Shown here piece after piece: positions 1,211 to 9,633 of a DNA stretch of 34,427 bases. The notes under the pieces are model-generated. The model saw only the letters and a list, made by a program, of their open reading frames with translations, did not search any database and was not told where the DNA came from. Position 1 is the stretch's first letter. Every line of letters begins with the position of its first letter. Position numbers and translations under genes: made by a program. Source of the DNA: a virus; the UHGV virus genome UHGV-0118447, one strand, 5' to 3'.

Positions 1211-1434
1211 GCTTTAACCTCCTGCACATCAACCGCATTCACCGCGCTATTGTGTCTTACAGACTTAAGCGCCGCAATGCAGTCTGACTTGCAAATGCGA
1301 TATGGGCTTTTAGGTTTATCTGGATTTATCTTTGCGGCCTGAAGTCGTCCACTTCGTATCCACTGCGTGATAGTGCCTTTGTCTACCTTCAGATACGATG
1401 CTGCCTCTTCACGAGTGAAGATTTCTTCTTCCAC
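1087..1434 (-). CDS. xis: Excisionase (HTH, Xis-like)
   Basis: 115 aa; N-terminal HTH (EEAASYLKVDKGTITQWIRSGRL); GTG start with GGAG SD; 3' end overlaps int start by about 124 nt as in lambda xis/int. Confidence 0.7.
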   Translation of the reverse strand: MEEEIFTREEAASYLKVDKGTITQWIRSGRLQAAKINPDKPKSPYRICKSDCIAALKSVRHNSAVNAVDVQEVKACQSNYAVARGTVISSRQMDQELDALLKHRTKGKRKNFTIV

Positions 1435-1533
1435 TTGGAATCTCCATTTATTGAGTTGGTATTATTGCGGTAGGTCTGGATATCTTGAGAAATGAACAGG
1501 CCTCACCGAGTGTGAGGCGGTGTTATTTCATGG

Positions 1534-6678: not shown

Positions 6679-7149
6679 CTAATAAAACACCCAATTTTCT
6701 GTTTCTTGGTTGTGTCCAAAGTTATATTCAATATCTGGTGTTGATGTATCAATATTCTTCATCCCATCAACAAGAGTTGATACAACAGCCAAATCTTGTT
6801 TGATTCTCATCAAATGGTATTTCTTCCGGCGCAATAAACTTTCAATGGCAAGTTTCTTCGTCGGGAACGCAAAAGATCTTTCTGCATTTTTTGCTACTTT
6901 CTTAATTGCATATCTATTTCTCCTTTGTTTCCATTCCTGTAACCACTGATTTGGTGCTGGTTTAAAATTAACAATCCAATGCGCAGGAACCAACCATGCA
7001 TAATGCTCTGTCTGATGAAAAGCTATATATTGAAGTGCGAATATTTTGATTCCATCTTCTTCAACTGTCGCTTGGAATCTCCAGAAAACAGGCATTCCCT
7101 CATGTTCAGTTTCTGATTCAGGAAAAGGTACGCTCCATGATTTTGTCAT
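6679..7149 (-). CDS. Hypothetical protein in AT-rich island (156 aa)
   Basis: ATG ORF; local GC clearly lower than flanks; followed by a 9-bp-stem hairpin (about 6637-6664) and the tL terminator. Confidence 0.6.
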   Translation of the reverse strand: MTKSWSVPFPESETEHEGMPVFWRFQATVEEDGIKIFALQYIAFHQTEHYAWLVPAHWIVNFKPAPNQWLQEWKQRRNRYAIKKVAKNAERSFAFPTKKLAIESLLRRKKYHLMRIKQDLAVVSTLVDGMKNIDTSTPDIEYNFGHNQETENWVFY

Positions 7150-7152
7150 ATA

Positions 7153-7440
7153 TTACTCATCTCCAAGGGCTTTGCTGATTGCTGCGATACCTTTATTAAC
7201 AGCTCCATACCATTCTGGATATGTTGTCGTTGTTCTATTTTTGGTTTGCTTAAGTAATAACTGAAGTGCTTCGAGAAGGTCAGGAGCTGCTGCTATCAGT
7301 AGCGCATCCTCCCTTTCATTTCTTGTTGCTGCTTCAATGTATGTGTCACCAATCGTCACACCATGGAACGTAGTCATCATCTCGTTGACGTTTCTAACCG
7401 TGTACTTCCATTTACCAGGCGTACCCTTAAACTCTTTCAT
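7153..7440 (-). CDS. Ead/Ea22-like N-domain protein (about 95 aa)
   Basis: GKWKY...AAAPDLLEALQ parallels the N-domain of the 3268-3879 gene; ATG at 7440 preferred over the GTG at 7446. Confidence 0.55.
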   Translation of the reverse strand: MKEFKGTPGKWKYTVRNVNEMMTTFHGVTIGDTYIEAATRNEREDALLIAAAPDLLEALQLLLKQTKNRTTTTYPEWYGAVNKGIAAISKALGDE

Positions 7441-7471
7441 ATCCACCTCTGTTGTTTATGCCAAAGCAAAT

Positions 7472-7714
7472 TTAACCATCAACAAACTCTTCTGGTAATT
7501 TATCAACCAGTTGATGACTTATTATCAGCCATTTGCCATCCTTCGTTTCGTATGCATATTTCTGGTCTTTTATCATCAGGTGTTCGGCTACTGCCCTAAC
7601 TGCCTGATCGGTGACATCTTCTCTCTTTCCTACCCACATTCCTTTTTCAGTGTTTAATGTTCCTTGAAAAATACGACCGCTTAATGGGCTTGCGCCCATA
7701 GTTTTTACTCTCAT
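7472..7714 (-). CDS. Hypothetical protein (80 aa)
   Basis: ATG ORF in the pL operon downstream of N. Confidence 0.5.
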   Translation of the reverse strand: MRVKTMGASPLSGRIFQGTLNTEKGMWVGKREDVTDQAVRAVAEHLMIKDQKYAYETKDGKWLIISHQLVDKLPEEFVDG

Positions 7715-7770
7715 GTATCAGCTCTCAAATAAGTGTTTTGCTGCGAAAATAAATCCGCTTAAGTTACCTG

Positions 7771-7908
7771 TTATTTATCCCACCAAGTTCCGTATCTATC
7801 TATCCAGTTACACCAATCGTCGACACTCCATTTTGTTGTGTCGCATTTTGGCAATTGGCATGAATATCTACCTTCTTTGTAAAGTCGGCGTTTGATTTTC
7901 TTGAGCAT
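7771..7908 (-). CDS. Small Cys/Trp-rich protein (45 aa) immediately downstream of N
   Basis: ATG 7 nt after the N stop with GAGGTGG SD; sequence MLKKIKRRLYKEGRYSCQLPKCDTTKWSVDDWCNWIDRYGTWWDK; below the ORF-track cutoff. Confidence 0.4.
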   Translation of the reverse strand: MLKKIKRRLYKEGRYSCQLPKCDTTKWSVDDWCNWIDRYGTWWDK

Positions 7909-7915
7909 GACCACC

Positions 7916-8248
7916 TCAATCGTAATAAGCTGGAATTGATTTTCCGCGTTGCTTCTGGCGGCCTGAACAGGTCACACCCATTTCACTACGTGGCTTGCTG
8001 TACCATGTGCGCTGATTCTTGCGCTCAATACGTTGCAGGTTGCTTTCAATCTGTTCGTGGTATTCAGCCAGCACTGTAAGGTCTATCGGATTCAGTGCGC
8101 TTTCTACTCGTGATTTCGGTTTGCGATTCAGCGAGAGAATAGGGCGGTTAACTGGTTTTGCGCTTACCCCAACCAACAGGGGATTTGCTGCTTTCCATTG
8201 AGCCTGTTTCTCTGCGCGACGTTCGCGGCGGCGTGTTTGTGCATCCAT
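7916..8248 (-). CDS. N: Antitermination protein N (lambda-type)
   Basis: MDAQTRRRERRAEKQAQWKAAN arginine-rich motif and lambda N-like remainder; start at the internal ATG of the track ORF. Confidence 0.9.
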   Translation of the reverse strand: MDAQTRRRERRAEKQAQWKAANPLLVGVSAKPVNRPILSLNRKPKSRVESALNPIDLTVLAEYHEQIESNLQRIERKNQRTWYSKPRSEMGVTCSGRQKQRGKSIPAYYD

Positions 8249-8420: not shown

Positions 8421-8451
8421 GCCCTTCTTCAGGGCTTAATTTTTAAGAGCG
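8421..8451 (-). promoter_or_regulatory. nutL (boxA CGCTCTTAA and boxB GCCCTGAAGAAGGGC)
   Basis: boxB hairpin at about 8421-8435 and boxA at about 8443-8451, read on the minus strand, upstream of N. Confidence 0.8.
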
Positions 8452-8490: not shown

Positions 8491-8519
8491 ATAGTACGAT
8501 TTGTACTTTATCGAGTCAA
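8491..8519 (-). promoter_or_regulatory. pL promoter with overlapping operator OL1
   Basis: Minus strand TTGACT-17 bp-TACTAT; dyad AGTACAAATCGTACT inside the spacer. Confidence 0.6.
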
Positions 8520-8582: not shown

Positions 8583-8614
8583 GGAAAAAGAAAACCCGAC
8601 GCTAAGGTCGGGTT
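8583..8614 (-). terminator. Intrinsic terminator directly after cI
   Basis: Minus-strand AACCCGAC-CTTAGC-GTCGGGTT hairpin followed by TTTTCTTTTT, about 30 nt after the cI stop. Confidence 0.6.
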
Positions 8615-8644: not shown

Positions 8645-9304
8645 TTAACTAAATGTCTCTTCAGGCCACTGGCTGGCGATAACTTTCCCTACTACGGAAC
8701 AGCTATCATTGCATGGAATCATTGGATATTGCGGGTTTAGTGGCTGTAGGAACACCTGACCGCTATCCCTGATCAGTTTCTTGAAGGTAAACTCGTCACC
8801 ACCAAGTCTGGCTATGCAGAAATCACCTGGCTCAACAGCCTGCTCAGGGTCAACGAGAATTAACATCCCGTCAGGAAAGCTTGGCTTGGATCCTGTTGGC
8901 GCGGTCATGGAATTACCTTCAACTTCAAGCCAGAACGCACAATCACTGGCTTTTTTGGTTGTGCTGACCCATCTCTCCGCATCACCTTTGGTAAAGGTTC
9001 TAAGCTCAGGCGAGAACATCCCGGCCTGAACATGAGAAAAAACAGGGTACTCATATTGTTTTTTAACGGGGGCAGATGAGTATTCGCCAACAGGTGAAAA
9101 TGTACCGTCGTGGTTGAATGAGACGTTATCAATACCAAGGTATTTAAACACCACACCAATCTCGTCAAGAGATGGATGACGAGATCCGCGCAACCAGTGA
9201 CCAATTCCACCCTGCGTCATACCAAGCTCTTCAGCTAACTTCTCTTGAGTTATGCCGAGCTCTTTCATTCTGGATCTAGCCAGTTCATACCATTTCATTT
9301 TCAT
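8645..9304 (-). CDS. cI: CI repressor (LexA/S24 autopeptidase type) with lambda-like C-terminal domain and a different N-terminal HTH
   Basis: C-terminal roughly 150 aa match lambda CI from memory; N-terminal HTH ([23 protein letters not shown]) is not lambda; start at MKMKW, track N-terminal extension rejected. Confidence 0.9.
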
Positions 9305-9417
9305 ACCCTTATTATTACGCTCTGTACTAAAACCATCCATGCACAAGATGTATTTTTTTTGTTTGCATTCTAAAAGTACATATCGTATTATTGTTTCATG
9401 GTTACTATGGAGGGCAT
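9305..9417. promoter_or_regulatory. OR region: pR (TTGCAT-17-TATTAT), OR1-like site AAGTACATATCGTATTAT, and pRM-proximal site on the opposite strand
   Basis: -35 at about 9363-9368 and -10 at about 9386-9391; operator core nearly identical to the pL operator; related half-sites near 9311-9330. Confidence 0.55.
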
Positions 9418-9633
9418 ATGAGCAACCTACGAAAATATCGAGAGTCACTGAATATCTCTCAAACAACACTTGCTAAGGCTGTTGGATGCACACAGGGGGC
9501 TATCGGACATTGGGAATCTGGTCGTCGCTTCCCAGACCTTAAAACATGCCGTGCTCTTGTTGAGTGCCTAAACAAGTTAGGCGCAAAAGTCAGTCTTGAT
9601 GACGTGTTCCCGCCGGAACACAAAGCCGCTTAA
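9418..9633 (+). CDS. cro: Cro-like repressor (XRE-family HTH, 71 aa)
   Basis: GGAGGG SD 4 nt upstream; HTH related to that of the cI N-domain; divergent from cI across the operator region. Confidence 0.8.

What the first reader, a model, noticed from the sequence alone, without database searches (positions are those of the whole stretch)
7771..7908. Unannotated 45-aa Cys/Trp-rich peptide directly after N
It lies 7 nt after the N stop with a GAGGTGG ribosome-binding site and encodes a peptide with three Cys and five Trp. It is below the ORF-track size cutoff and sits at the position of lambda ral (restriction alleviation), which is also a small Cys-containing protein, though I see no sequence similarity.
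Basis: partly seen in the sequence, partly recalled or inferred. Interest (0 to 1): 0.45.

Follow-up and report, generated by a model that had tools for sequence, protein, structure and literature searches.

The report
Known small phage gene after N
The 45-codon reading frame right after the prophage's N gene is a real, conserved phage gene (the DUF5484 family: Sf6 gene 36, T4 gene 55.4) that NCBI's automatic annotation skipped in every genome checked; nobody knows what it does, and it is not a stand-in for lambda's ral.

Summary
On the minus strand, ATG 7908 to TAA 7771 encodes a 45-aa peptide with 3 Cys and 5 Trp. It starts 7 nt after the TGA stop of a lambda-type N gene, and a GAGGTGG Shine-Dalgarno overlaps that stop.

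It is not a new gene. It scores 48 bits against Pfam DUF5484 (cut-off 27) and matches PHROG 1871. It is 98% identical to Shigella phage Sf6 gene 36 and about 55% identical to T4 gp55.4. tblastn finds relatives in 1055 phage records. The exact protein is already in NCBI as "hypothetical protein". RefSeq/PGAP annotated nothing there in all 40 sampled E. coli genomes, of 146 that carry it.

The ral analogy fails:
- Sf6-type ral lies just downstream of this ORF in 27 of 61 related loci, so the two co-occur.
- Profile comparison with Ral gives 0.2% probability.
- The three Cys are not family features; 18 of 56 members have no Cys.
- The conserved Trp/Tyr look like the core of a small alpha-beta-alpha-beta domain (AlphaFold pLDDT 85).

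No function is known. T4 55.4 is dispensable in a published knock-down screen. The one functional clue is a conserved fusion of the domain to the C-terminus of a phage DNA polymerase.

Verdict: an ordinary, already catalogued accessory early gene of unknown function.

The parts
7771..7908 (-). 45-codon gene plus TAA stop. It is the DUF5484 / PHROG 1871 family member, equivalent to Sf6 gene 36 and homologous to T4 55.4.
   Evidence: Translation. Pfam PF17583 at 48 bits against a cut-off of 27. PHROG 1871, E = 1.6e-22. Sf6 annotation. Intact in 60 of 61 relatives.
7911..7917 (-). Shine-Dalgarno GAGGTGG, overlapping the TGA stop of N (7916-7918). GAGG lies 5 nt upstream of the ATG.
   Evidence: Read. 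GAGGT is kept in all 61 related junctions.
7916..8248 (-). Lambda-type antiterminator N gene (110 aa, ending ...IPAYYD), the cistron directly upstream.
   Evidence: Pfam N36 at 91.9 bits. PHROG 271. 'Antitermination protein N' in RefSeq relatives. Present upstream of the ORF in all 61 loci.
7715..7770 (-). Conserved 56-nt spacer after the ORF, ending in the ribosome-binding site of the next gene. It is the mosaic boundary, since the gene that follows differs between relatives.
   Evidence: the spacer is nearly identical in the 61 loci, whereas at least 8 different genes start right after it.
7472..7714 (-). Next cistron in this window, an 80-aa DUF7446 protein. Context only; it is variable among relatives.
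   Evidence: Pfam DUF7446 at 99 bits. Present after the ORF in only 6 of 61 loci.
8421..8451 (-). nutL. BoxB GCCCTGAAGAAGGGC (8421-8435) and boxA CGCTCTTA (8444-8451) match lambda as I recall its sequence. This is the N-utilisation site of the transcript that carries N and the ORF.
   Evidence: Read. The comparison with lambda nutL is from my own knowledge. Sf6 annotates a nutL at the equivalent place.
8491..8519 (-). Promoter-like site TTGACT-17-TACTAT, a candidate pL that would drive N and the ORF.
   Evidence: Consensus scan only. Position is as expected from the Sf6 annotation.

Best explanation
This is a genuine protein-coding gene: the lambdoid copy of the DUF5484 / PHROG 1871 family, whose members include Sf6 gene 36 and T4 gp55.4.

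Expression (inferred from anatomy): it is the second cistron of the early-left (pL) transcript and is made as soon as N is made. Its Shine-Dalgarno overlaps the N stop codon, so ribosomes finishing N can start on it directly.

Fold (predicted): the 45-aa product forms a compact helix-strand-loop-helix-strand mini-domain. I infer that its core is built from the family's conserved aromatic and aliphatic residues (Tyr15, Pro20, Trp27, Trp32, Ile36, Trp42). On that reading the Trp richness is structural. The Cys residues are incidental to this lineage, not a metal site.

Function (inferred, weakest step): it is a dispensable accessory early protein. Most likely it works as a small protein-binding module that docks on a component of the replication or transcription machinery, of host or phage, during takeover. 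It is probably not an enzyme or a nucleic-acid binder. The confidence given covers the whole statement; gene identity alone is about 0.95 and the mechanism about 0.3.
For: Shown:
- Family membership.
- 98% identity to Sf6 gene 36, whose own note says 'similar to T4 55.4'.
- tblastn hits in 1055 phage records, mostly T4-like, at about 45-56% identity.
- 53 cluster representatives with E <= 0.001 in a scan of 1.8 billion proteins.
- Intact in 60 of 61 related contigs. Variable sites fall 11 at codon position 3, 6 at position 2 and 4 at position 1.
- Always directly after N, with a conserved Shine-Dalgarno.
- AlphaFold2 model with mean pLDDT 84.9: H3-12, E15-17, H29-39, E40-42.
- Nearly invariant K6, Y15, P20, W27, W32, I36, D37, G40, W42.
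- Cys not conserved and mean net charge near zero.

For an accessory role:
- T4 55.4 knock-down scored 'Not Fit' (-0.35, p = 0.68) in CRISPRi-ART (PMC11879866, supplementary file 15).
- Only 146 of the 1322 E. coli genomes that matched the 951-bp N-region query carry the ORF.

For a link to replication or transcription machinery:
- The whole domain is the in-frame C-terminal ~40 aa of the family-A DNA polymerase in 17 Cbunavirus-type phage records. One of them is Escherichia phage EK8 at 72% identity, so the fusion has been maintained.
- It overlaps the 3' end of the RNAP2 gene in G7C-like N4 phages.
- It lies between primase-like and DnaB genes in a metagenomic phage contig.
- It lies among early genes upstream of the RNA polymerase in a T7-like contig.
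Against: - No experiment, solved structure or annotated relative gives a function. All named relatives are 'hypothetical' or 'uncharacterised', and the literature searches found nothing functional.
- Gene neighbourhoods in phage early regions are rich in replication and transcription genes anyway, so adjacency is weak evidence. Only the polymerase fusion is specific, and it comes from one phage group.
- Translational coupling to N is inferred from spacing, not shown.
- Within the close lambdoid alleles the non-synonymous to synonymous ratio is only moderately low (about 11 to 10 changes). One common allele even carries P20Q at the otherwise invariant proline.
Confidence: 0.55

Rival explanations
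1. It is an anti-defence or restriction-alleviation protein, functionally like Ral though unrelated in sequence. It would neutralise a host immunity system early in infection.
For: - It sits in the non-essential early-left region where lambdoid phages keep ral and similar genes.
- It is small, early, and dispensable for T4 on a laboratory host.
- It is patchily present among prophages with the same N.
- It is shared across virulent and temperate phages of enterobacteria, as many counter-defence genes are.
Against: - It co-occurs with ral in 27 of 61 loci and in Sf6, so it does not replace it.
- There is no profile similarity to Ral.
- The Cys residues behind the analogy are not conserved.
- A conserved fusion to a DNA polymerase is not what one expects of a restriction inhibitor.
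- No anti-defence annotation exists for any relative.
Confidence: 0.15
2. It is a small nucleic-acid-binding domain. It would clamp DNA or RNA, for example as a processivity aid when fused to the polymerase, or bind the pL transcript when free.
For: - The N-terminal helix is basic: mean +2.1 across the family, and K3 K4 K6 R7 R8 K11 R14 in this protein.
- The family has several conserved aromatic residues; some might be exposed, but the model's solvent exposure was not examined.
- It is fused to a DNA polymerase C-terminus.
Against: - Family-wide net charge of the domain is about zero (+0.34 +/- 2.5), and residues 15-45 are acidic on average (-1.8).
- In a 40-residue domain most conserved aromatics are likely needed for the core.
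- There is no fold match to known DNA- or RNA-binding mini-domains.
Confidence: 0.1
3. It is an RNA-polymerase-binding factor with an omega/Rpb6-like fold that modulates transcription together with N.
For: - By my reading, the helix-strand-helix-strand order matches the RpoK core.
- The gene follows N here and follows RNAP2 in G7C-like phages.
Against: - Foldseek against the PDB finds nothing.
- hhalign against yeast Rpb6 gives 0.5% probability.
- Most lambda-type N prophages lack the gene.
Confidence: 0.05
4. It is not a gene: a chance open frame in the N-to-next-gene spacer.
For: - ORFs of this length are frequent by chance in this AT-rich region.
- PGAP annotated no gene there in any of the RefSeq genomes checked.
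Against: - Pfam hit well above the gathering score.
- Protein-level conservation down to about 40% identity across unrelated phage types.
- Excess of third-position variation.
- Conserved Shine-Dalgarno and start.
- Confident predicted fold.
Confidence: 0.02

Closest known systems
Shigella phage Sf6 gene 36 protein (NP_958212)
   Same: Same gene. It is 45 aa and differs only at I5V. It has the same position directly after a lambda-type N, with the same junction and downstream spacer.
   Different: In Sf6 the next genes are a short acidic ORF and ral. In this window the next gene is a DUF7446 protein and there is no ral.
Phage T4 gp55.4 (Pfam DUF5484, PHROG 1871; 'uncharacterized 5.1 kDa protein in Gp55-nrdG intergenic region')
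   Same: Same family and length, about 55% identity, with the same conserved core (Y15, P20, W27, W32, I36, D37, G40, W42). It is an early or middle small gene of unknown function.
   Different: T4 gp55.4 has no Cys and only three Trp. It sits in the gene 55-nrd cluster of a virulent phage, not after an antiterminator. It was shown to be dispensable by knock-down.
C-terminal domain of Cbunavirus (N4-like) family-A DNA polymerases, e.g. Pectobacterium phage CB1 gp46
   Same: The whole DUF5484 domain is recognisable (…GKYTCPKPVVDTSKWKPKDWVKYVDAHGTWTG).
   Different: It is covalently fused to a roughly 900-aa polymerase rather than free-standing.
Lambda / Sf6 Ral (restriction alleviation)
   Same: Small, Cys-containing, non-essential product of the early-left operon downstream of N.
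   Different: No sequence or profile similarity. Ral is a separate gene that frequently lies just downstream of this ORF. The Cys residues in this family are not conserved.

Membership tests
Pfam DUF5484 (PF17583) / PHROG 1871 | Score above the curated family threshold over the full model | tested here: met
   PF17583 at 48.0 bits against a cut-off of 27, residues 4-42 on model positions 2-41 of 43. phrog_1871 E = 1.6e-22, residues 1-43 on 1-44 of 45.
Pfam DUF5484 (PF17583) / PHROG 1871 | Conserved core residues (K, Y, P, W, W, I-D, G, W) in a ~40-aa domain | tested here: met
   K6, Y15, P20, W27, W32, I36, D37, G40 and W42 are all present. They are invariant or at least 90% conserved in 56 sequences.
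Pfam DUF5484 (PF17583) / PHROG 1871 | Phage-borne small gene in an early-gene region | tested here: met
   Second cistron of the early-left operon here. Relatives lie in T4-like, N4-like, T7-like and lambdoid early regions.
Ral (restriction alleviation, lambda type) | Sequence or profile similarity to Ral | tested here: not met
   hhalign of the family profile against Sf6 Ral: probability 0.2%. tblastn with Sf6 Ral finds nothing in the window.
Ral (restriction alleviation, lambda type) | Occupies ral's slot, i.e. is an alternative to ral | tested here: not met
   Ral lies downstream of the ORF in 27 of 61 loci and in Sf6.
Ral (restriction alleviation, lambda type) | Alleviates type I restriction in vivo | not testable with these tools
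   Needs an EcoKI plating assay.
Small zinc-binding (Cys-rich) phage proteins | A conserved set of metal ligands (usually four Cys/His) | tested here: not met
   Only three Cys and no His. Cys17 is in 31 of 56 members, Cys22 in 5, Cys33 in 6. All three occur only in this lineage, and 18 of 56 have no Cys.
RNA polymerase omega / Rpb6 / RpoK | Significant fold or profile similarity | tested here: not met

The most novel reading that the evidence does not exclude
DUF5484 is a pan-phage docking module, carried by T4-like, N4-like, T7-like and lambdoid phages, that binds one conserved component of the bacterial replication or transcription apparatus. Some phages make it free, early in infection; Cbunavirus phages have welded it to their own DNA polymerase. 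In lambdoid phages it would be co-translated with N as part of host takeover. That would give a function to a mini-protein present in more than a thousand sequenced phages and missing from the RefSeq annotations checked here.
Probability: 0.2. Interest if true: 0.55.

Novelty: already known. Interest (0 to 1): 0.22.

Why it matters
Practical point: a real and widespread 45-aa phage gene went unannotated in every RefSeq E. coli genome checked (no feature in 40 of 40 sampled; 146 complete genomes carry it). Prophage gene inventories and pangenome analyses built on those annotations miss it.

Biological point: the family is one of many conserved phage mini-proteins with no known function. The conserved fusion to a phage DNA polymerase is a concrete, testable lead. 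Nothing here suggests a new kind of system.

Tried and rejected
- Ral analogy: rejected on co-occurrence and lack of similarity.
- Zinc or disulfide role for the Cys residues: rejected because they are not conserved.
- Solved-structure relatives by sequence: none. Only a chance match to ribosomal protein S14 at E = 1.2.
- BFVD fold search: returned only uncharacterised family members.
- The afdb50 library was not available.
- NCBIfam: no model.
- RNA element in or around the ORF: no Rfam hit at E <= 1. The fold z-score is -1.15. No terminator-like hairpin was predicted on the minus (coding) strand between N and the next gene.
- Scan of representative genomes: only two spurious loci, because the ORF is absent from the species representatives.
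- N-terminal parts of longer family members: no Pfam domain apart from a sub-threshold DnaJ-type CXXCXGXG match in one. Their contigs are too short to help.
- Literature: no paper on DUF5484, phrog_1871, gp55.4 function or Sf6 gene 36. The only mention of gp55.4 is in a transcript list.

Full report
**What is there.**
On the minus strand, an ATG at 7908 opens a 45-codon frame that ends at TAA 7773-7771.

The gene upstream (7916-8248, minus strand) is a lambda-type antiterminator N: Pfam N36 at 91.9 bits and PHROG 271. Its TGA stop lies 7 nt before the ATG and is overlapped by the Shine-Dalgarno GAGGTGG (7917-7911).

Further upstream lie boxB (8421-8435) and boxA (8444-8451), which match lambda nutL as I recall its sequence (sequence read). 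There is also a promoter-like site at 8519-8491.

The ORF is therefore the second cistron of the early-left operon. That operon continues through several small genes of unknown function to a RecT-like gene, a Mu Gam-like gene and the integrase.

**Is it more than chance?**
ORF length alone says nothing here: 66 ORFs of at least 25 aa overlap this 4.5-kb stretch. Homology settles it:
- The peptide scores 48 bits against Pfam DUF5484, whose cut-off is 27, and E = 1.6e-22 against PHROG 1871.
- tblastn finds it in 1055 phage records. Ten are near-identical lambdoid or P22-like phages; the rest are mostly T4-like phages of Escherichia, Klebsiella, Yersinia, Pectobacterium and others, at about 45-56% identity.
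- A scan of 1.8 billion cluster representatives gives 53 relatives at E <= 0.001.

Among 61 closely related viral contigs:
- The frame is intact in 60; one carries an 8-bp deletion.
- 21 variable sites split 11, 6 and 4 over codon positions 3, 2 and 1.
- The ORF always follows an N gene ending ...IPAYYD, with GAGGT kept in the junction.
- The commonest junction, TGAGGTGAGCCATG, has an in-frame stop two codons before the ATG. That fixes the ATG as the start, not the GTG the ORF lister chose.

**Is it unannotated?**
Only in part. The exact sequence of this window's protein is in NCBI on 226 contigs, and the I5V variant on 998.

RefSeq/PGAP left it out wherever I looked. 146 of 5426 complete E. 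coli genomes carry the DNA, and none of 40 sampled has a feature there. NCBIfam has no model for it, which may be why.

**The ral idea.**
- Sf6 has both gene 36 and ral (gene 35).
- A full-length Sf6-type ral lies about 128 nt downstream of the ORF in 27 of the 61 loci.
- The window itself has no ral.
- Profile comparison of the family with Ral gives 0.2% probability.

The ORF is thus a separate gene that often precedes ral, not an alternative to it.

The ORF plus a 56-nt spacer forms a conserved block. At least eight different genes start right after it in different relatives. That is the usual lambdoid mosaic boundary.

**What the family looks like.**
In 56 aligned members, P20 is invariant, and K6, Y15, W27, W32, I36, D37, G40 and W42 are at least 90% conserved.

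The Cys residues are not conserved: Cys17 occurs in 31 of 56, Cys22 in 5 and Cys33 in 6. All three occur together only in this lineage. 18 members have no Cys, T4 gp55.4 among them. A metal or disulfide site is therefore not a family property.

AlphaFold2 with this alignment gives a fairly confident model (mean pLDDT 84.9): helix 3-12, strand 15-17, a loop, helix 29-39, strand 40-42. In so small a domain, the conserved aromatics are most simply read as the hydrophobic core. This is an inference.

Mean net charge of the domain is near zero. The N-terminal helix is basic and the rest acidic.

**Search for a function.**
- No solved structure is related by sequence.
- Foldseek against the PDB finds nothing.
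- BFVD returns only uncharacterised family members.
- Literature searches found no functional study.
- The one experimental datum is from the CRISPRi-ART screen. T4 55.4 knock-down scores -0.35 (p = 0.68, 'Not Fit'), so it is dispensable on the laboratory host (PMC11879866, supplementary file 15).

**Context clues.**
- G7C-like N4 phages: the gene overlaps the 3' end of the RNAP2 gene in every contig read.
- A T7-like contig: it lies among early genes, next to a weak match to lambda Kil and upstream of the RNA polymerase.
- Another contig: it lies between a primase-like gene and a DnaB gene.
- T4: it lies in the gene 55-nrd cluster.

These all say 'early gene region' and little more.

The specific clue is a fusion. 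In 17 Cbunavirus-type records (Pectobacterium, Kosakonia and Escherichia phage EK8 at 72% identity), the whole domain is the in-frame C-terminus of the family-A DNA polymerase. A fusion kept across that much divergence suggests the domain can act at the replisome.

**Best reading.**
This is a real, already catalogued accessory early gene (DUF5484, equivalent to Sf6 gene 36 and homologous to T4 55.4). It is expressed right after N and probably coupled to it.

It encodes a metal-independent aromatic-core mini-domain. Its most likely mode of action is binding a protein of the replication or transcription machinery. This last step is inferred, at about 0.3 confidence.

Rivals:
- An anti-defence role: 0.15.
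- A nucleic-acid-binding role: 0.10.
- An omega-like RNA polymerase factor: 0.05.
- Not a gene: 0.02.

**Verdict.**
- The ral interpretation is not supported.
- The gene is already known as a family of unknown function.
- Interest is low. There is a modest practical point (an annotation gap in the RefSeq E. coli genomes checked) and one testable lead (the polymerase fusion).

Noticed in passing
L002 (Sf6) about 1410-1493, minus strand; the same in 30 further loci among L009-L069, starting about 57 nt after the DUF5484 stop. Not present in the window.: An unannotated 28-codon, extremely acidic ORF (MEEEFEEFEEHPQDVMEQYQDYPYDYDY) with a strong Shine-Dalgarno lies between gene 36 and ral. Its stop overlaps the first codons of ral. 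It is conserved in 31 loci with only minor variants.
   Followed up: partly
L006 (Pectobacterium phage CB1) 2001-2102; 16 further phage records: The DUF5484 domain is fused in frame to the C-terminus of the N4-like family-A DNA polymerase. The fusion is conserved across Pectobacterium, Kosakonia and Escherichia (EK8, 72% identity) phages.
   Followed up: partly
L005 (phage IME11) 2004-2144; L070-L073 5001-5141: In G7C-like N4 phages the DUF5484 gene overlaps the last 14 nt of the RNAP2 (PF00940) gene in every contig examined.
   Followed up: partly
window 7715-7770 (minus strand): The 56-nt spacer after the ORF is nearly identical in 61 relatives, while the gene that follows it varies (at least 8 kinds). 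The recombination boundary of the mosaic sits at the next gene's start codon.
   Followed up: partly
L009-L069, codon 20 of the ORF: Four contigs carry P20Q at the only invariant residue of the family. One contig has an 8-bp deletion that frameshifts the ORF. Several others have an alternative C-terminal end (...WWERI...). This suggests relaxed constraint in some prophages.
   Followed up: no
window 8593-8614: A G+C-rich hairpin scores as terminator-like on both strands. It lies between the end of the LexA-family repressor gene (8645-9469 region) and the candidate pL.
   Followed up: no
window 7472-7714, 7153-7446, 6679-7149 (all minus strand): The next three cistrons of the early-left operon are also conserved phage families of unknown function: DUF7446 / PHROG 1578, PHROG 1273 and PHROG 1636.
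   Followed up: no
L077 3868-4165: In a T7-like metagenomic contig, the DUF5484 gene directly follows a 41-aa gene with a weak Pfam match to lambda Kil. Both are in the early gene block upstream of the RNA polymerase.
   Followed up: no
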